Of a DNA stretch of 14,230 bases, positions 2,029 through 7,163 are shown in pieces (the stretch's first letter is position 1; every line of letters starts with the position of its first letter). This stretch comes from a virus. The DNA lies in IMG/VR virus record IMGVR_UViG_3300012971_000145; one strand, written 5' to 3'. The translations under genes and the position numbers were made by a program. Below the pieces are notes generated by a model. It did not search any database and was not told the DNA's origin. It was given only the letters and a program-made list of their open reading frames with translations.

Positions 2029-2078
2029 ACTACCTCCTGTGAAATAGGCTTATAATGAATTCTAGCGAGGATATATCA
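2029..2078. promoter_or_regulatory. AT-rich divergent intergenic region with TATAAT (2051-2056) for the + strand genes
   Basis: This is the only AT-rich stretch nearby. A TATAAT hexamer is followed 23 nt later by the GCGAGG RBS and ATG 2079. It also carries the minus-strand RBS. Confidence 0.35.
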
Positions 2079-2582
2079 ATGTTCAAGATACTGCTGATAA
2101 ATCAAATCTGGTATCACGAGGATGACGCTCAAATTGAAGTGAAGGAAGTGACCCTGGGCGAACTTTTGGAGAACCCGGATTACGAAATTCAGGCGGAATT
2201 GGAGCGTGCCGGCTGGAAAAATGTCAAGAAGGTGGTGGACCGGGATACCCGGCTCGCCCTGAACAAGAATTTCTTTCTGATCTCCGGCCAGGGCTACCCT
2301 GCCGTCTTGCCCGTCGATCTGGACCGATTGCAGAGTTACAACTTAACATCGTTGGCGAATGGCAGTAAACTGGTGCAAGAAGTTAGCGTCCAGTCGGCAT
2401 TGACCGACGAGCAGTATAAGCAGTATCAGAAGGCCAGGAAGGTCATCGACAACCAGAAGCGCCAGCAGGCCGAGGCCAAGCGCAAGCGGGCGGAAAAGAA
2501 GAAGAGCCGGGAGCTTGCTAAGGCTGCCAAAGTGCTTCAGGACAACGGAATCAAGGTAGAACTTGACCAACAGGGAGGGTAA
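2079..2582 (+). CDS. hypothetical protein with Lys/Arg-rich coiled C-terminus (KRQQAEAKRKRAEKKKSRELAK)
   Basis: I chose ATG 2079, 8 nt after GCGAGG. The track's ATG 2055 sits inside the TATAAT hexamer. Stop is TAA 2580-2582. Confidence 0.55.
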   Translation: MFKILLINQIWYHEDDAQIEVKEVTLGELLENPDYEIQAELERAGWKNVKKVVDRDTRLALNKNFFLISGQGYPAVLPVDLDRLQSYNLTSLANGSKLVQEVSVQSALTDEQYKQYQKARKVIDNQKRQQAEAKRKRAEKKKSRELAKAAKVLQDNGIKVELDQQGG

Positions 2583-2583
2583 G

Positions 2584-2886
2584 ATGGCTGCGGCCAAACA
2601 GGTTATTGAGTCCGAGGAGAAGCCGGTGGAGCGGAACGCCTTGAAGGAGGCCATCGTCACGGTCCTGAAGGCGGGGCTGGGCCTGGAACTGCGCACGCCC
2701 CTGGCCGTTTACCCCACGGACGGCAGCTACATGGTCAGCTTCTTGTTTTTCGACGGGGAGCCGATCCCGACCGGCCTCAGCCTTGAACAGCGCAACCGGG
2801 TGAAGAAGGAACAGGAGATGGATGAGTATTTCGACTCTCCTGAAGAGGCGGCGGAATTATTTTTGAAGCTCAAGGAGCAACGATGA
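2584..2886 (+). CDS. hypothetical protein, 100 aa
   Basis: ATG 2584 is immediately preceded by GGGAGGG. The track's ATG 2563 lies inside the upstream gene. Confidence 0.6.
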   Translation: MAAAKQVIESEEKPVERNALKEAIVTVLKAGLGLELRTPLAVYPTDGSYMVSFLFFDGEPIPTGLSLEQRNRVKKEQEMDEYFDSPEEAAELFLKLKEQR

Positions 2887-3362
2887 AACCCAAGATATGC
2901 AGCCACCGGGCGGCTGCGGAATTCCTGCACGACAACCCGAAGACACACGACGTTATTTTGATCGTCAACAACGGCACGAGGTATGACAACGAGGACCACC
3001 TGAGCGCCATCCGGCGAAACGCCAACCGGGTCTGTGAGTTGATGTTTGACGACATCGAGTTCCACCGTGACAACCACAGGATGGTGGACGAGTCGCAGGT
3101 TCAGGAGGCGATCCATTTCGCCGCCGGCAAGGACAACCTCGTTGTCACCTGCACGGCGGGCATGGGCCGCAGTGCGGCCTTGGCATACGTCGTGGCTTGC
3201 TCTAAAATGGACCCTGCCGAGGCGGTGACGATTTTGGACCCGGATCGCCACACTCCGAATGAGAAAGTGATTTTCCTGGGCAACCGGCTGGTGGACGCGC
3301 CCACTCTTTTGGAGTGTTACGCCCGATTTAAGGACCAGATGTGCCTGCGATACAAATTCTAG
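2883..3362 (+). CDS. Cys-based phosphatase (PTP / dual-specificity phosphatase superfamily, CX5R P-loop)
   Basis: The start shows ATGA coupling. 'VVTCTAGMGRSAALAY' matches the (V/H)Cx2Gx2R(S/T) catalytic loop of cysteine phosphatases. It sits about two-thirds of the way along a 159-aa protein, as in DSP folds. Confidence 0.65.
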   Translation: MKPKICSHRAAAEFLHDNPKTHDVILIVNNGTRYDNEDHLSAIRRNANRVCELMFDDIEFHRDNHRMVDESQVQEAIHFAAGKDNLVVTCTAGMGRSAALAYVVACSKMDPAEAVTILDPDRHTPNEKVIFLGNRLVDAPTLLECYARFKDQMCLRYKF

Positions 3363-3372
3363 GAGATTTAGC

Positions 3373-3600
3373 GTGGCGGACTTCTGCAAAGCCTGCTCAA
3401 CCGAACTCTTCGGAGAGGATCGGGGCGACTTGAAGGGAGTAACCTCTGAAGAGGACTGGCAGCAAGGCCGTGCCGGCATCACCATCTGCGAGGGTTGCGG
3501 CGTTATTTATGTTGACCCCAGCGGCAACTGCGTTTCTTCGGATTGTCTGAAGAAGGGCAAGCCTGGACACGGAGATACCCAATGGCCGACAACCCCGTAA
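3373..3600 (+). CDS. small zinc-ribbon protein (CKAC ... CEGC ... C-x5-C)
   Basis: GTG 3373 lies 7 nt after AGGAG. It has two CxxC pairs. It is 75 aa. Confidence 0.55.
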   Translation: MADFCKACSTELFGEDRGDLKGVTSEEDWQQGRAGITICEGCGVIYVDPSGNCVSSDCLKKGKPGHGDTQWPTTP

Positions 3601-3881
3601 GACGGCTGCCCGACCCAGGCGACGGCCTGGGGCGGGTGGAAACCGGCCCGGTGCAAATTGGCGACGACTGGCCGGGCCTCTTCATTCGGGGCGACTGCGC
3701 CTTTGGCCTCGCCATGAGCATCAAGGCCGTGCTGACCCACTTCGAGGACAACCCGAAACAGGAAATCGGCTTCGCCCTCCACGACCTCCAATCGCTGTAC
3801 AAGGACATTCTCACTCAGGTCATCATCGGCGGCAACGAGATGTATAATAGAATGGAGGACAAATTGCCGCCGGAGGGCTAG
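3582..3881 (+). CDS. hypothetical protein, about 99 aa
   Basis: ATG 3582 is preceded by GGAGA. The track start at 3543 has no RBS. The start here is uncertain. Confidence 0.5.
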   Translation: MADNPVRRLPDPGDGLGRVETGPVQIGDDWPGLFIRGDCAFGLAMSIKAVLTHFEDNPKQEIGFALHDLQSLYKDILTQVIIGGNEMYNRMEDKLPPEG

Positions 3882-4267
3882 TGGAAGCGTTCGTATTTAT
3901 CGGTTTATTATTCGCCCATTGGGTGGGAGATTTCGTTTGCCAAACTCGTTACATGGCTGATAACAAGAGCAAGGACTGGTTGGCCCTGACCAGCCACGTC
4001 TTGACCTACATGACGGTGCTGGGGGTCTTTATCGGTGTCCTGCTTGTCGGCCTGGCCTTAAACGGCCCCGGATACGCCGGCTTGTTTTTCCTGTGGTTGG
4101 GGGTTAATTTCGCGTTGCATTTTGGCACCGATGCCATAACCAGCCGCATCACCAGTTATTATTGGAGCCAGCGACAAACAAGTGCGTTTTTCAGAACCAT
4201 CGGTTTCGACCAGTTTCTTCACGCGACCGCCCTGCTGTTGACAACCAAGTACATCCTGGGAATTTGA
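3881..4267 (+). CDS. integral membrane protein, possibly DUF3307-like (HWVGDFVCQ motif)
   Basis: GTG 3881 overlaps the upstream TAG by 1 nt. It has three or four hydrophobic helices. The family assignment comes from my memory of the motif only. Confidence 0.5.
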   Translation: MEAFVFIGLLFAHWVGDFVCQTRYMADNKSKDWLALTSHVLTYMTVLGVFIGVLLVGLALNGPGYAGLFFLWLGVNFALHFGTDAITSRITSYYWSQRQTSAFFRTIGFDQFLHATALLLTTKYILGI

Positions 4268-4268
4268 A

Positions 4269-4646
4269 ATGTCGTCGCAGCCTTGGCTTGGCAAACCCCG
4301 CTGGAATGGTAGGAAGGTCAATATCGACCTGAATAACGCCCTCCTACCCATCGTCAATAACGAAGCCTTCTGCATCCAGATTGAAGGCTGCGATAACTTC
4401 TTCATGCTGCTGTTCAGCACCGAAGAGCAATTGCGGACGGTGATGGCGCATTTGCAAAAGAAAATTGGCTTCAGGGACTACCGGGTGAAAGTTGTCACCG
4501 ACCCCCAAGACTTCATGAAGTCCATCATCGACCTGGGCGTGCGCATCATGCTCAACCCCCAGATCGTCAACGATCATCATACGAAGTGGCTGGAAGTGAT
4601 TCGGGACGGCGATGAAATCTTCTATTTTGAACCGGAGGTAAACTAA
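4269..4646 (+). CDS. hypothetical protein, 125 aa
   Basis: ATG 4269 lies 1 nt after the upstream stop. Stop is TAA 4644-4646. Confidence 0.55.
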   Translation: MSSQPWLGKPRWNGRKVNIDLNNALLPIVNNEAFCIQIEGCDNFFMLLFSTEEQLRTVMAHLQKKIGFRDYRVKVVTDPQDFMKSIIDLGVRIMLNPQIVNDHHTKWLEVIRDGDEIFYFEPEVN

Positions 4647-4647
4647 C

Positions 4648-4959
4648 ATGGTTTGGAGCGTGTTCGATCTCAAGGGTCAGTCGCACCCGGTCCCTGGCAA
4701 GGTGTGCGTGGTGTTTCAGGATGAAGTTTCGGCGGGCGAGGCGACCGTGTTCCTCGATCAGTTCAAGCCCAAAGGCGTCAGTATGTATTTTGCGGTCCAC
4801 ACCGCCAGCGTGGACGTGGGCGAAGGCAACGAGGACGCCTTCATCGCCACCGTCCTCCAGCACCCTGACAAGGTGAAGGCTGCGGAGCGCGAAATGAGCA
4901 TCATCCTGTTCGGTGGAAGCCAATTCGGGGGGAACCTGTTCGGGGAGCAAAAGCCATGA
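4648..4959 (+). CDS. hypothetical protein, 103 aa
   Basis: GGAGGT lies 9 nt upstream of ATG 4648. It has TAACATG coupling to the previous gene. Confidence 0.6.
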   Translation: MVWSVFDLKGQSHPVPGKVCVVFQDEVSAGEATVFLDQFKPKGVSMYFAVHTASVDVGEGNEDAFIATVLQHPDKVKAAEREMSIILFGGSQFGGNLFGEQKP

Positions 4960-5414
4960 GCGACGACATCAAGGTGTACCAGCGGGGGGAAAGCCCCCAG
5001 GAGAAACCCTATTTCGAGGCGTTGCTCGCCGCCCTCCCGGAAGGGTGGGCGGTGACGGAGGGGCCGTATTGTCCGGGCAAGGAGGGTCATCTCACCTACA
5101 AGGCGGTCAGCGCCCAGGGCGGGCAGTATCGGATCGCGCATGTTCGGGACGGCGACTTTGCCGTTACCCTGGAGCCGGCCAAAATCGACCATAATTGGTT
5201 GGCGCAGCAACTCGGAGCCGAGATCGTTGGCAAGGTAGAAGGGCCAATTCACGGCATGGCCGGAGTCGCTAATCTGACCCGGCAATATCAACAACGCATG
5301 AAGGAGAAACGAGATGCTGCCGACCCAGAAGTGGATACTGGCCAAGGTGATCTCCGGGGGCCAGACGGGGGCGGACCAGGCGGGCCTACGGGCCGCACGG
5401 GCGATGGGCATTGA
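4956..5414 (+). CDS. hypothetical protein, 152 aa; the 3' 101 nt overlap the next gene
   Basis: ATGA coupling at 4956. The Gly-rich tail 'GPDGGGPGGPTGRTGDGH' lies wholly inside the next gene's start region. Confidence 0.45.
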   Translation: MSDDIKVYQRGESPQEKPYFEALLAALPEGWAVTEGPYCPGKEGHLTYKAVSAQGGQYRIAHVRDGDFAVTLEPAKIDHNWLAQQLGAEIVGKVEGPIHGMAGVANLTRQYQQRMKEKRDAADPEVDTGQGDLRGPDGGGPGGPTGRTGDGH

Positions 5415-5829
5415 AACCGGCGGCTGGGTGCCTTTCGGCTGTGTCACCGAGGACGGCCCCAATCCAGCGCTCCTCAAGGAGTACGATCTCAAGGAGATGG
5501 ATAGCGACAAATACCCGCCCCGCACGGAGGCCAACGTGCGGGATTCGGACGGCACTATGCGTTTCGCCGCTAACTTCGCCACCGCCGGTGAACGCTGCAC
5601 CCTGAAGGCGATCAAGTGGTTCAATAAACCATATTTCGACGTGGACTGGAACAACCCGCCGTCCATCCAACAGGCGGTGGAGTGGATCGTCGCCAACAAA
5701 GTGAAAACGCTCAACGTCGCCGGCAACCGGGAAAGTACCAACCCAGGCATCGGCAGCTTCGTGGAACAATATTTGGTCCAGGTGTTCGCCCAGGTCATAC
5801 TTAAACCCGTGCGGAGTGCGACGAAATGA
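5314..5829 (+). CDS. SLOG-superfamily protein of the 'molybdenum-cofactor-carrier'/YpsA-like family
   Basis: AAGGAG lies 9 nt before ATG 5314. The N-terminal 'ISGGQTGADQAGL' P-loop-like motif is followed by 'GGWVPFG..EDG.NP...Y.L.E......Y..RT..NV.DSDGT'. This is the characteristic MoCo-carrier/YpsA pattern. Confidence 0.75.
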   Translation: MLPTQKWILAKVISGGQTGADQAGLRAARAMGIETGGWVPFGCVTEDGPNPALLKEYDLKEMDSDKYPPRTEANVRDSDGTMRFAANFATAGERCTLKAIKWFNKPYFDVDWNNPPSIQQAVEWIVANKVKTLNVAGNRESTNPGIGSFVEQYLVQVFAQVILKPVRSATK

Positions 5830-6584
5830 TCGACTTTGAACGAGGCGCGAAAACCACCGGCTCGAAGTTCTACTTCCTCACCGGCGACGAGGCCGTGATG
5901 GAGTGGAACCTCATCAACTACATGATCCGCTTCCACCGCCACAAGGGCTACCAGTTCGTGCTGCCGCCCTTTTTGGTAAATAAGAAAGTGGGCGAGATGG
6001 CCGGCATTCTCCCTCGTTTCGAGGGCGACTACTACCAGACCAAGGATGGCCTCATGCTGATCCCGACCGCCGAGACGCCCCTGGTCGGGATGCACGCCAA
6101 TGAAATCTTCAAGGAGGAAGAGCTTCCCCGCCGCTACGTCGCCTACTCCCCCTGCTTCCGCAAGGAGGCTGGGGCCTACGGTGCCAAGGACAAGGGCTAC
6201 CGCCGGGTCCATCAGTTCAATAAGGTCGAATTGTTTACCATCTGCACGCCGGACTCGTCGGAGTTTTACCACAACCAGATGGTGGACGACGTGTGCGAAC
6301 TGCTCAAGAATCTCAACGTCGAACATCGCAAGGTAGTGCTGGACGAAAAGGACCGTTCGCCCGTTTCCAATCAGACCATCGACATCGAAGTGCTGGTCGG
6401 CAAGGAGTGGTTGGAGGTATCTTCTATTTCCAACACCGGCGACAACCAGAGCCGGGTCGCCCAGGTCCGTTATAAGCCAAAGGACGGCAAGAAGAATGTC
6501 AAGTGTCACTTGCTCAACGGTTCGGGCGTTGCCCTCCCCCGGCTGATGCTCGCCCTGGCTGAGCGCATCAACGAGTGGAAATAA
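5826..6584 (+). CDS. seryl-tRNA-synthetase-like protein, catalytic core only (class II aaRS motifs 1-3), lacking the N-terminal coiled-coil arm
   Basis: ATGA coupling to the SLOG gene. It aligns to bacterial SerRS from the start of the catalytic domain onward. Matches are 'LIPTAETPL', 'YSPCFRKEAGAYGAKDKGYRRVHQFNKVEL', 'DIEVLVGKEWLEVSSISN' and the motif-3 'LNGSGVALPRLMLALAE'. The protein is only 252 aa. Confidence 0.85.
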   Translation: MIDFERGAKTTGSKFYFLTGDEAVMEWNLINYMIRFHRHKGYQFVLPPFLVNKKVGEMAGILPRFEGDYYQTKDGLMLIPTAETPLVGMHANEIFKEEELPRRYVAYSPCFRKEAGAYGAKDKGYRRVHQFNKVELFTICTPDSSEFYHNQMVDDVCELLKNLNVEHRKVVLDEKDRSPVSNQTIDIEVLVGKEWLEVSSISNTGDNQSRVAQVRYKPKDGKKNVKCHLLNGSGVALPRLMLALAERINEWK

Positions 6585-6585
6585 C

Positions 6586-6921
6586 ATGGCTGTTCACAAA
6601 GGCTGGGACTTCTTCAGCGCCGACCCCGGCAAAGTTGAAAAATGCGAATGCCGGGTGTGCGGCGAAACCTGCGACGTGAAACGTAATGTCATGGGTGCGA
6701 CCGGCTACGCCGAGTCCCTGGCCGGGATGAAGCACCTGCATGACAACTTCGTGTGCCCCCACGCCCAGGAAGACTGGCACAAGCAAATGCGTTCCTTGCG
6801 CATGGAACAGGAAAATACCAAAAGCGCCGCCCTCAAGGAGCTTTTGGAAGCAGAAATTACGCAAATCTACGTCAACAAGAAAACCACCGAGGGCTGGAAG
6901 CCCGACTGGAGAGATTTATGA
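6586..6921 (+). CDS. Cys/His-rich small protein, putative Zn-finger
   Basis: TAACATG coupling. 'CECRVCGETC' is followed by 'H..H...CPH'. It is 111 aa. Confidence 0.55.
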   Translation: MAVHKGWDFFSADPGKVEKCECRVCGETCDVKRNVMGATGYAESLAGMKHLHDNFVCPHAQEDWHKQMRSLRMEQENTKSAALKELLEAEITQIYVNKKTTEGWKPDWRDL

Positions 6922-7163
6922 TGATCGAAGTCTGCCCGGCCTTCACCCCGGATGATGCCCGGCAGCAGGCCCGTGCCGCTGGTTATATTGTGAACGACCG
7001 CCTGCAAGCCATTTCGATGGGAATTGGCATTGGCGAGATGGACCCCGGCTACATCCTCAAGGTGGAAAAGGGGGAGCAGGTGGCTCAGGCCGATAATATT
7101 CGGGAGCGCCCCGACCTGGAAGGGGTGTTTGACGACCTGATGGAGCAAGGAGGGGAGGAATGA
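6918..7163 (+). CDS. hypothetical acidic protein, 81 aa
   Basis: ATG 6918 overlaps the upstream TGA. TGGAGAG lies upstream. The track ORF 6753.. carries an implausible N-terminal extension. Confidence 0.5.
   Translation: MMIEVCPAFTPDDARQQARAAGYIVNDRLQAISMGIGIGEMDPGYILKVEKGEQVAQADNIRERPDLEGVFDDLMEQGGEE

What the first reader, a model, noticed from the sequence alone, without database searches (positions are those of the whole stretch)
5826..6584. Stand-alone SerRS catalytic core without the tRNA-binding arm
The protein starts where the SerRS class-II catalytic domain starts and ends just after motif 3. Motif 2 'FRKEAG', motif 3 'NGSGVALPR' and the TAE(T)PL serine-site strand are kept. The ~100-aa N-terminal coiled coil that grips the tRNA-Ser variable arm is missing. 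Known aaRS paralogues that have lost their tRNA-recognition modules no longer charge cognate tRNA and put the amino acid on other acceptors. Examples are HisZ, AsnA, EpmA/PoxA, GluQRS and the amino-acid:carrier-protein ligases. This one is translationally coupled to a SLOG nucleotide-binding protein and to small Zn-finger proteins. That suggests serylation of a nucleotide, RNA or protein acceptor.
Basis: partly seen in the sequence, partly recalled or inferred. Interest (0 to 1): 0.85.

Follow-up and report, generated by a model that had tools for sequence, protein, structure and literature searches.

The report
Arm-less seryl-tRNA synthetase core of huge phages
Huge bacteriophages carry a strongly conserved, shortened seryl-tRNA synthetase that keeps every catalytic residue but has lost the arm that normally holds the tRNA, so it either needs a partner to charge tRNA or puts serine on something else.

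Summary
The ORF at 5826-6584 is real. It encodes a 252-aa bacterial-type SerRS catalytic core. It lacks about 150 N-terminal residues (the coiled-coil arm plus a linker) and about 25 C-terminal residues.

It is not a one-off fragment. At least 120 protein clusters (61-100% identity, about 245-260 aa) share the start M-x-DFERGAK. They occur on contigs of 240-670 kb, two of them filed as viral in IMG/VR. None ranked among the best matches from 185,579 GTDB species genomes.

All serine-, ATP- and Mg-binding residues are invariant, the motif-2 loop keeps its bacterial length, and dN/dS is 0.03-0.09. The AlphaFold model superposes on SerRS (TM 0.92).

No protein-coding neighbour is shared across 13 lineages. 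The recurrent neighbours are tRNA-Ser gene clusters (four lineages with unrelated flanks) and other translation genes.

My best reading is an active serine-activating subunit that still serves tRNA-Ser, with the tRNA grip supplied in trans, as in the insect mitochondrial SerRS2alpha/SLIMP heterodimer. A non-tRNA acceptor remains possible.

I found no description of the family in the searchable literature. I rate it a new variant of a known kind.

The parts
5826..6584 (+). Arm-less, tail-less bacterial-type SerRS catalytic core, 252 aa
   Evidence: ORF and translation. PF00587 E 1.2e-28. SerRS 2dq3 residues 151-400, E 1e-53. AlphaFold2 pLDDT 89, TM 0.92 to 2dq3.
5946..5978 (+). Motif 1 (GYQFVLPPFLV, aa 41-51), the class II dimer-interface motif
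   Evidence: P48 is invariant in the family. E26, M33, H37 and P48 are shared with 137 cellular SerRS.
6066..6083 (+). TAETPL strand; T81/E83 correspond to T. thermophilus T225/E227 (serine amino-group site)
   Evidence: Invariant in the family and in cellular SerRS. The numbering follows from a constant offset of 144 in the alignment and from my recollection of the T. thermophilus structure papers.
6156..6218 (+). Motif 2 with its loop (F111-F131): R112=R256, E114=E258, R127=R271, F131=F275. K133 and E135 (=K277, E279) follow directly.
   Evidence: All are invariant. The E114-R127 spacing equals that of the bacterial enzymes. The loop 117-123 is the only low-confidence part of the model.
6414..6434 (+). 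EVSSISN strand; E197/S200 correspond to E345/S348 (Mg2+/ATP site)
   Evidence: Invariant.
6516..6542 (+). Motif 3 (NGSGVALPR); S233 corresponds to T380 (serine hydroxyl), R239 to R386
   Evidence: N231, G232, S233, A236, P238 and R239 are invariant.
5314..5829 (+). cpYpsA SLOG-family gene; its stop overlaps the SerRS-core ATG (ATGA). Neighbour in this subclade only.
   Evidence: PF12694 E 6.4e-42. Present upstream only in relatives at least 71% identical.
6586..6921 (+). 111-aa Cys-rich ORF, 1 nt after the SerRS-core stop. Neighbour in this subclade only.
   Evidence: No Pfam or PHROG hit. Found only in relatives at least 76% identical.
10619..11332 (+). Stand-alone GluRS-type anticodon-binding domain fused to DUF2934: a second synthetase fragment in the window
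   Evidence: PF19269 E 1.5e-10 and PF11154 E 2.1e-13. The relative L007 has a full-length GluRS plus a separate DUF2934 ORF.
12992..14074 (+). tRNA genes Ala(TGC), Val(TAC), Ile(TAT)
   Evidence: ARAGORN and Rfam RF00005.

Best explanation
The gene encodes the catalytic subunit of a seryl-tRNA synthetase trimmed to its class II core. It belongs to a family specific to huge (about 240-670 kb) phages. It binds serine and ATP and makes seryl-adenylate exactly as cellular SerRS does. The seryl group most probably still ends up on tRNA-Ser, either the phage's own or the host's.

[quoted passage not shown] The tRNA grip would therefore come in trans. The most economical source is the other subunit of a mixed dimer with the host's full-length SerRS. 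SerRS binds tRNA across its dimer: the arm of one subunit presents the acceptor end to the active site of the other. An unidentified phage factor could serve instead.

Shown here: the truncated architecture, the intact active site, the preserved motif-2 loop, strong purifying selection, restriction to huge-phage contigs, and recurrent linkage to tRNA-Ser genes.

Inferred: adenylate formation, tRNA as the acceptor, and the trans-acting arm.
For: (1) Architecture is fixed across the family. All 33 fetched family loci (at least 61.7% identity) have at most 57 open codons upstream and at most 13 downstream, except L007/L010. The 140 loci with at most 49.4% identity mostly carry ~146-180 codons upstream and 25-30 downstream; the exceptions lie at contig ends or are frameshifts. 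All 35 aligned members start M-x-DFERGAK.

(2) The active site is intact. T81, E83, R112, E114, R127, F131, K133, E135, E197, S200, S233 and R239 are invariant in the family and identical in 137 cellular SerRS.

(3) The motif-2 loop keeps its bacterial length, and E114 is invariant. In T. thermophilus this loop enters the acceptor-stem groove, and the corresponding Glu258 contacts G73 (PMC9427863). In mitochondrial SerRS the loop is shortened.

(4) dN/dS is 0.03-0.09.

(5) Context. No protein-coding neighbour within 5 kb is shared between the 13 lineages. tRNA-Ser genes lie within 3 kb in four lineages whose flanks share no protein-coding ORFs: L005, the L012/L025/L026 clade, L174 and L175. 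The closest are 11 nt downstream in L025 and 46 nt upstream in L026. Those tRNAs keep long variable arms, and most keep G73.

(6) Translation genes recur nearby. L007 has IleRS-like, GluRS and MetRS genes. L174 and L175 have class Ib synthetases. L176 has RF-1-domain and GatB_Yqey genes directly downstream. L005 has RRF.

(7) Precedent. SerRS2alpha lost the coiled coil and charges tRNA-Ser efficiently as a heterodimer with arm-bearing SLIMP, and tRNA-Ser binds across both SerRS subunits (PMC10817482).
Against: No biochemical data exist for this family.

The deletion (about 150 aa) is deeper than the engineered E. coli arm deletion (PDB 9qof). By my recollection of Borel et al. 1994, which is not in the held library, that mutant still activates serine but loses more than four orders of magnitude in tRNA charging.

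A mixed dimer with the host enzyme would need interface compatibility across many hosts. No multimer modelling tool was available, so I could not test this.

No arm-encoding ORF lies within 388 kb of family flanks.

Two arginines conserved in cellular SerRS (the QARR segment) are K/P in the family. Several residues after the TAE strand are also switched. This may reflect altered substrate contacts.

The window's own subclade has no tRNA-Ser within the fetched flanks. Translation genes cluster in huge phages anyway, so the linkage is suggestive, not proof.
Confidence: 0.4

Rival explanations
1. Serine ligase for a non-tRNA acceptor. The core makes seryl-adenylate and transfers serine to a nucleotide, a DNA base, a small molecule, a carrier protein or another protein, as aa:CP ligases, PoxA/EpmA or AsnA do with their substrates.
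For: Every recognised tRNA-binding appendage is gone: the arm, the linker and the C-tail. Known synthetase paralogues without tRNA modules usually changed acceptor (PMC9437257). Family-specific switches lie near the active site (K64R, V84T, T87V, N88G, RR210/211KP). In the window's subclade the gene is packed with a SLOG nucleotide-binding protein and a DSP-like phosphatase. L176 has a PP-binding protein 2.3 kb downstream.
Against: No candidate acceptor or partner gene is conserved across lineages. SLOG and Zn-finger linkage is confined to one subclade. A carrier protein occurs near 1 of 13 lineages. The motif-2 loop and E114, which serve acceptor-stem binding in SerRS, are retained. The recurrent neighbours are tRNA-Ser and translation genes.
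Confidence: 0.25
2. Self-sufficient minimal synthetase. A homodimer of the core charges tRNA by reading only the acceptor end (G73 and the first base pairs) through the motif-2 loop, possibly with relaxed tRNA specificity.
For: The motif-2 loop has bacterial length (PMC9427863). Most neighbouring phage tRNA-Ser genes keep G73. No partner gene was found. By my recollection of Borel et al. 1994, the arm-deleted E. coli enzyme retains weak, less specific charging.
Against: By the same recollection, the engineered arm deletion loses more than 10^4 in kcat/Km. The family shows no compensating basic surface (median pI 6.2 against 5.7 for the equivalent cellular segment). It has no new domain except in a few members.
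Confidence: 0.15
3. Adenylate-only or regulatory role. The core uses enzyme-bound seryl-AMP to make Ap4A-type dinucleotides, or it senses serine, or it titrates host SerRS subunits to reprogramme host translation.
For: Without a tRNA grip the adenylate would be long-lived. Class II synthetases including SerRS can make Ap4A (my own knowledge). Nucleotide-signalling and counter-defence genes sit nearby in some loci: cpYpsA in the window, an Apyc1-like gene in L009, an Acb2/Tad1-like gene in L175 and NADAR in L007.
Against: These neighbours are not conserved across lineages. A pure titrator would not need every catalytic residue to be invariant.
Confidence: 0.12
4. Decaying remnant of a captured serS gene, with no function.
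For: The same window holds another synthetase fragment, a GluRS anticodon-binding domain without its catalytic domain.
Against: The same truncation points occur in more than 120 clusters down to 61% identity. dN/dS is 0.03-0.09. All catalytic residues are invariant. The AlphaFold model is confident and compact.
Confidence: 0.03

Closest known systems
Protostome mitochondrial SerRS2alpha / SLIMP heterodimer
   Same: The catalytic SerRS subunit has lost the N-terminal coiled-coil arm during evolution but keeps an active site. tRNA-Ser is held by the arm of the partner subunit across the dimer (PMC10817482).
   Different: There the partner is a co-encoded, catalytically dead paralogue. Here no paralogue was found near the gene, and the partner would have to be the host enzyme or an unknown factor. 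The origin also differs: bacterial-type in phages against animal mitochondria. The phage protein lacks the C-tail as well.
Engineered E. coli SerRS arm-deletion mutant (PDB 9qof)
   Same: A bacterial-type SerRS without the coiled coil. It binds a seryl-adenylate analogue and superposes on the model (TM 0.91, 36-37% identity).
   Different: The engineered protein keeps residues 1-34 and ~98-430 (my recollection of Borel et al. 1994). Its crystallised chains are 359-368 residues long. The natural phage family is 252 aa and removes about 150 N-terminal and 25 C-terminal residues.
Amino acid:[carrier protein] ligases (aa:CP ligases)
   Same: Dimeric SerRS-derived class II cores that lost the tRNA-binding domain (PMC9437257).
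   Different: They derive from the zinc-dependent methanogen-type SerRS and sit with carrier proteins. The phage core is bacterial-type (serS TIGR00414 261 bits against serS_MJ 18 bits). It uses the Thr/Glu/Ser serine site. Carrier-protein genes are absent in 12 of 13 lineages.
Full-length SerRS of jumbo phages (e.g. Brevundimonas phage Kikimora, USN15342.1)
   Same: A phage-encoded SerRS homologue in a large genome.
   Different: It is 433 aa with Seryl_tRNA_N at 1-118 and the C-tail. It is only 40% identical and is not a member of the truncated family.
Small stand-alone class II cores of cultured phages (PHROG 4806 'histidyl tRNA synthetase'; BFVD A0A141HRQ2, K7QJG2 of phAPEC8)
   Same: Phage proteins of about 190-220 aa consisting only of a class IIa synthetase-like core.
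   Different: They are much more divergent (11-23% identity, TM 0.50-0.77). I did not check them for catalytic residues, and they are not SerRS-like in sequence.

Membership tests
Canonical bacterial-type seryl-tRNA synthetase (NCBIfam TIGR00414, EC 6.1.1.11) | Class II catalytic core with motifs 1, 2 and 3 | tested here: met
   PF00587 E 1.2e-28. PDB SerRS hits down to E 1e-53. Foldseek TM 0.92.
Canonical bacterial-type seryl-tRNA synthetase (NCBIfam TIGR00414, EC 6.1.1.11) | Serine-, ATP- and Mg-binding residues (T225, E227, R256, E258, R271, F275, E279, E345, S348, T380, R386 in T. thermophilus numbering) | tested here: met
   The equivalents are T81, E83, R112, E114, R127, F131, E135, E197, S200, S233 and R239. 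All are invariant in 35 family members and shared with 137 cellular SerRS.
Canonical bacterial-type seryl-tRNA synthetase (NCBIfam TIGR00414, EC 6.1.1.11) | N-terminal coiled-coil tRNA-binding arm (Pfam PF02403) | tested here: not met
   There is a stop 8 codons upstream and no PF02403 hit. An N-domain HMM finds nothing in 388 kb of family loci (best E 0.7). The same HMM detects the domain in controls at E 2e-25 to 1.6e-57.
Canonical bacterial-type seryl-tRNA synthetase (NCBIfam TIGR00414, EC 6.1.1.11) | Score above the curated equivalog cut-off | tested here: not met
   261.4 bits against a cut-off of 301.65. Only profile positions 151-400 of 418 are matched.
Canonical bacterial-type seryl-tRNA synthetase (NCBIfam TIGR00414, EC 6.1.1.11) | Serylation of tRNA-Ser | not testable with these tools
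   This needs an enzyme assay. Only genomic linkage to tRNA-Ser genes is available.
aa:CP ligases | Descent from the zinc-dependent methanogen-type SerRS | tested here: not met
   serS_MJ TIGR00415 gives 18.3 bits against 261.4 bits for bacterial serS. All the best PDB matches are bacterial- or eukaryotic-type SerRS.
aa:CP ligases | Loss of the tRNA-binding domain | tested here: met
aa:CP ligases | Carrier-protein gene in the neighbourhood | tested here: not met
   There is no PP-binding gene in the window or in 12 of 13 lineages. Only L176 has one, 2.3 kb downstream.
SerRS2alpha/SLIMP-type split-function SerRS | Catalytic subunit without the coiled coil but with an intact active site | tested here: met
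SerRS2alpha/SLIMP-type split-function SerRS | Arm-bearing partner subunit encoded in the same genome | tested here: inconclusive
   None lies within +-10 kb of the gene in any fetched locus. The complete 240-670 kb genomes could not be read.
SerRS2alpha/SLIMP-type split-function SerRS | Heterodimer formation and cross-subunit charging | not testable with these tools
   No multimer prediction or biochemistry was available.
Catalytically dead synthetase paralogues (HisZ, SLIMP type) | Loss of adenylate-forming residues | tested here: not met
   All catalytic residues are invariant.
Huge-phage translation gene complement (Al-Shayeb et al. 2020, PMC7162821) | Encoded on phage genomes larger than 200 kb, together with tRNAs and other synthetases | tested here: met
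   Contigs filed as viral in IMG/VR: 532,729 and 498,568 bp. Further contigs of 669,797, 622,399, 502,461, 296,080, 281,329 and 241,293 bp. tRNA arrays and synthetase genes lie alongside.

The most novel reading that the evidence does not exclude
The core is a virus-specific seryl-transferase that no longer uses tRNA. It would activate serine and attach it to a nucleotide, a modified DNA base, a small molecule or a protein in the infected cell. That would make it a new bacterial-type synthetase-derived ligase class, independent of the aa:CP ligases.
Probability: 0.2. Interest if true: 0.85.

Novelty: new variant of a known kind. Interest (0 to 1): 0.6.

Why it matters
Huge phages are known to carry synthetases, and annotation pipelines label this one simply 'seryl-tRNA synthetase'. 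It is in fact a natural version of a classic protein-engineering experiment: SerRS without its tRNA-binding arm. It has been kept under strong selection in many phage lineages.

If it works through mixed dimers with the host enzyme, it would be a virus completing its own synthetase with a host subunit. If it charges tRNA on its own, it defines the minimal functional SerRS and a possible source of relaxed tRNA specificity during infection. If it uses another acceptor, it is a new synthetase-derived ligase.

Each alternative can be tested directly with one small recombinant protein.

Tried and rejected
(1) I suspected that Thr to Leu/Met at position 229 (HTLNGS to HLLNGS) removed the serine-hydroxyl ligand. 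I rejected this. The motif-3 arginine sits six residues after the hydroxyl-binding Thr/Ser, so that ligand aligns with the invariant S233. By my recollection, human SerRS also has Met at the 229-equivalent position.

(2) Split gene: the 152-aa ORF upstream (4956-5414) has the size of the missing N-terminus. It has no Pfam or PHROG hit, and the N-domain HMM does not match it or any ORF in 388 kb of family loci.

(3) The one apparent 'truncated' cellular case (L112) is a frameshifted full-length gene. Its N-domain lies upstream in another frame, E 1.6e-57.

(4) Short SerRS-like representatives in the 50%-clustered library (P0155, P0259, P0223, P0131) are fragments, frameshifted or misassembled canonical genes that keep the C-tail. 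They are not further arm-less lineages.

(5) A compensating basic surface was not found: median pI 6.2 against 5.7.

(6) A single-sequence scan of viral contigs found nothing. The alignment-based scan found four loci.

(7) There is no nucleotide match to 50,697 deposited phage genomes. The protein matches there are full-length SerRS or host-like contigs at no more than 41% identity.

(8) Rfam finds only the three tRNAs. No T-box or other leader lies near the gene.

(9) The afdb50 fold library was unavailable, and Borel et al. 1994 is not in the held library.

(10) Literature searches for a truncated phage SerRS returned nothing relevant.
Full report
OBSERVATION

The + strand ORF 5826..6584 encodes 252 aa. 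In its frame a TAA lies at 5802-5804, 8 codons before the ATG, and more stops lie further upstream. TAA is not a codon known to be reassigned in phages, so an upstream extension is excluded.

Pfam gives only tRNA-synt_2b (E 1.2e-28). Every PDB sequence match at the default threshold (29 chains) is a seryl-tRNA synthetase. The best is Aquifex aeolicus 2dq3, residues 151-400 of 425 (E 1.1e-53).

The NCBIfam serS equivalog model matches only its positions 151-400 of 418. It scores 261 bits, below its 301.65-bit cut-off.

An AlphaFold2 model built from 35 family sequences is confident (pLDDT 89, pTM 0.87). Only the motif-2 loop (117-123) is poorly defined. The model superposes on SerRS structures with TM 0.87-0.92. 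Among them is the engineered E. coli arm-deletion mutant 9qof.

In the full-length SerRS of phage Kikimora, the arm domain Seryl_tRNA_N spans residues 1-118, and the region homologous to the window's protein starts about 60 residues further on. The ~25-residue C-terminal tail is also absent.

A CONSERVED FAMILY, NOT A FRAGMENT

A search of 5.8 billion proteins returned at least 120 clusters at 61-100% identity. Almost all are 245-262 aa long and carry only PF00587. In an alignment of 35 of them, every sequence begins M-x-DFERGAK and ends within a few residues of motif 3.

I fetched 173 loci holding relatives and extended each reading frame.
- The 33 loci with at least 61.7% identity have at most 57 open codons upstream. 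They have at most 13 open codons downstream, apart from L007/L010, which carry an 84-aa C-terminal extension.
- The 140 loci with at most 49.4% identity mostly have about 146-180 codons upstream and 25-30 downstream.
- The exceptions among those 140 lie at contig ends. One other, L112, is a frameshifted full-length gene.

At 50% clustering the family collapses to three representatives. Scores then drop from 349 to 273 bits for full-length cellular enzymes. Other short hits there are fragments of canonical genes.

Pairs at 88-98% protein identity give dN/dS of 0.03-0.09.

WHERE IT LIVES

Family members sit on contigs filed as viral in IMG/VR, of 532,729 and 498,568 bp. Others sit on metagenomic contigs of 669,797, 622,399, 502,461, 296,080, 281,329 and 241,293 bp.

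These contigs are full of small unannotated genes, tRNA arrays, a tmRNA, RRF, HNH and TnpB genes, and other synthetases. The 669,797-bp contig carries a protein in the same 90% cluster as the window's, with the same gene order.

A scan of one genome from each of 185,579 bacterial and archaeal species kept only ordinary full-length SerRS as its best matches, at no more than 49% identity.

No deposited phage genome has the family. One NCBI record assigns a member to a Woesebacteria bin and labels it 'partial'. This looks like a mis-binned phage contig.

ACTIVE SITE

The alignment to SerRS has a constant offset of 144 through motif 2 and 147-148 near motif 3. The residues I recall from the T. thermophilus structures therefore map as follows.

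| T. thermophilus | This protein |
|---|---|
| T225 / E227 | T81 / E83 |
| R256 / E258 | R112 / E114 |
| R271 | R127 |
| F275 | F131 |
| K277 | K133 |
| E279 | E135 |
| E345 / S348 | E197 / S200 |
| T380 | S233 |
| R386 | R239 |

All of these are invariant in the family and identical in 137 cellular SerRS.

The motif-2 loop has the bacterial length. In T. thermophilus this loop inserts into the acceptor-stem major groove, Glu258 contacts G73, and Phe262 reads positions 68/69. In mitochondrial SerRS the loop is shortened (PMC9427863). The Phe262 equivalent here is Tyr118. That position is Tyr or His in most family members but not all.

The family also has fixed differences from cellular SerRS: K64R, V84T, T87V, N88G, F179P, C201I, and K/P in place of the two arginines of the QARR segment. 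I could not assign roles to these.

CONTEXT

In the window the gene overlaps the stop of a cpYpsA SLOG gene (ATGA). A 111-aa Cys-rich ORF follows 1 nt after its stop. The block 2055-7447 has no strong terminator-like site. This is ordinary phage gene packing.

The SLOG neighbour is found only where the SerRS core is at least 71% identical. The Cys-rich ORF is found only at 76% identity or above.

I compared 16 loci that represent 13 lineages. No ORF within 5 kb is shared between lineages, apart from within-clade synteny and one or two isolated cross-lineage matches.

tRNA-Ser genes do recur:
- L025: tRNA-Ser(GCT) 11 nt downstream, plus two more.
- L026: tRNA-Ser(GCT) 46 nt upstream.
- L008/L012/L024: four tRNA-Ser genes within 3.3 kb.
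- L005: three tRNA-Ser genes flanking, plus a further long-variable-arm tRNA 109 nt downstream.
- L175: three within 2.1 kb.
- L174: one at 2.4 kb and three at about 6 kb.

L012, L025 and L026 form one clade. L005, L174 and L175 have unrelated flanks, so this makes four lineages of 13.

Suppose a phage of 300-600 kb has a single tRNA-Ser cluster. A random gene would then fall within 3 kb of it about 1.5-3% of the time. Four of 13 is then improbable, at roughly 1e-3 or less. This estimate is rough, and translation genes tend to cluster anyway.

These tRNAs are 85-95 nt long with long variable arms, and most have G73. Other neighbours are also translation-related:
- L007: IleRS-like, GluRS and MetRS.
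- L174 and L175: class Ib synthetases.
- L176: RF-1-domain and GatB_Yqey genes directly downstream.
- L005: RRF.

Two family members (P0020, P0012) carry a C-terminal extension with weak, sub-threshold similarity to the IF2 N-terminal domain (E 0.012 and 0.014).

MECHANISM

The protein almost certainly makes seryl-adenylate. The real question is the acceptor.

Established knowledge bears on this. [quoted passage not shown] In protostome mitochondria the catalytic subunit SerRS2alpha lost the arm and charges tRNA-Ser efficiently as a heterodimer with SLIMP. SLIMP keeps the arm but has a dead active site (PMC10817482).

My best-supported reading (confidence about 0.4) is this. The phage core still serves tRNA-Ser charging, and the arm is supplied in trans. 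The simplest source is a host SerRS subunit in a mixed dimer.

A self-sufficient minimal synthetase that reads only the acceptor end is a close variant (0.15).

All tRNA-binding appendages are gone. Several conserved residues near the active site have changed. Truncated synthetase paralogues usually did change acceptor (PMC9437257). However, no conserved partner or acceptor gene supports it.

An adenylate-only or regulatory role (0.12) and a decaying remnant (0.03) are less likely.

COMPARISON AND NOVELTY

The family fails membership of canonical SerRS because the arm and tail are absent and the score is below the equivalog cut-off.

It fails membership of the aa:CP ligases because it is bacterial-type rather than methanogen-type and has no linked carrier protein.

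It resembles the SerRS2alpha/SLIMP arrangement in architecture, but a partner has not been shown.

A recent review of synthetase paralogues lists only albomycin-resistant SerRS2, SLIMP and aa:CP ligases for SerRS (PMC9437257). The huge-phage paper reports synthetases only in general terms (PMC7162821). The jumbo-phage genomics review does not mention SerRS (PMC7824862). Targeted searches found no description of a truncated phage SerRS.

I therefore rate it a new variant of a known kind, of moderate to high interest, and directly testable.

Noticed in passing
window 7504-10161 (+): An 885-aa protein with a major-vault-protein shoulder domain (E 1.4e-25) and a vault repeat (E 9e-11). It is 92-96% conserved in the related phage contigs L015 and L016. 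A vault-like protein in a huge phage is unusual.
   Followed up: partly
window 10619-11332 (+): A 237-aa protein made of a GluRS-type anticodon-binding domain (PF19269, E 1.5e-10) fused to DUF2934, with no catalytic domain. The relative L007 has a full 443-aa GluRS followed by a separate DUF2934 ORF. This lineage therefore carries a second synthetase fragment.
   Followed up: partly
window 2883-3362 (+): A 159-aa protein with weak dual-specificity phosphatase similarity (E 1e-4, below the Pfam cut-off) and a CX5R motif (CTAGMGRS). It is syntenic with the SLOG/SerRS block in L007 and L015.
   Followed up: no
window 12992-14074 (+): tRNA-Ala(TGC), tRNA-Val(TAC) and tRNA-Ile(TAT). The TAT anticodon would read AUA directly.
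   Followed up: no
window 4956-5414 and 5314-5829: The cpYpsA ORF overlaps the upstream 152-aa ORF by 101 nt. Gene callers on the identical contig L002 start cpYpsA at the position equivalent to 5404 (141 aa). The Pfam match, however, begins at residue 12 of the long form, so the true start is uncertain.
   Followed up: partly
P0020 and P0012 (L007 8001-9005; L010): Two family members 71-72% identical to the window's protein carry a ~80-aa C-terminal extension. It has weak IF2 N-terminal-domain similarity (E 0.012 and 0.014, below the Pfam cut-off).
   Followed up: partly
L005 10847-10932: An 86-nt tRNA with a long variable arm and an ambiguous anticodon, 109 nt downstream of the SerRS core. 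ARAGORN calls it Asp(GTC) at an odd position; a GCT (Ser) reading is possible by eye.
   Followed up: partly
L174 15956-16031: A tRNA with a CTA anticodon (an amber suppressor, labelled Pyl by ARAGORN) in a related huge phage. This hints at stop-codon recoding.
   Followed up: no
L009 3642-4022 and 8777-9607: A phage-encoded tmRNA, and an Apyc1-like metallo-beta-lactamase-fold gene that overlaps the stop of the SerRS core.
   Followed up: no
L176 10744-17004: RF-1-domain and GatB_Yqey genes lie directly downstream of the SerRS core. A 756-aa PP-binding protein, ThiF and ThiS follow within 6 kb. This is the only lineage with a carrier-protein domain nearby.
   Followed up: no
BFVD hits A0A141HRQ2, A0A292GIB7, A0A2I7SAH4, K7QJG2; PHROG 4806: Cultured phages (for example phAPEC8) encode other 185-220-aa stand-alone class II synthetase-like cores. 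PHROGs annotates them 'histidyl tRNA synthetase' although the profile is only 190 positions long.
   Followed up: no
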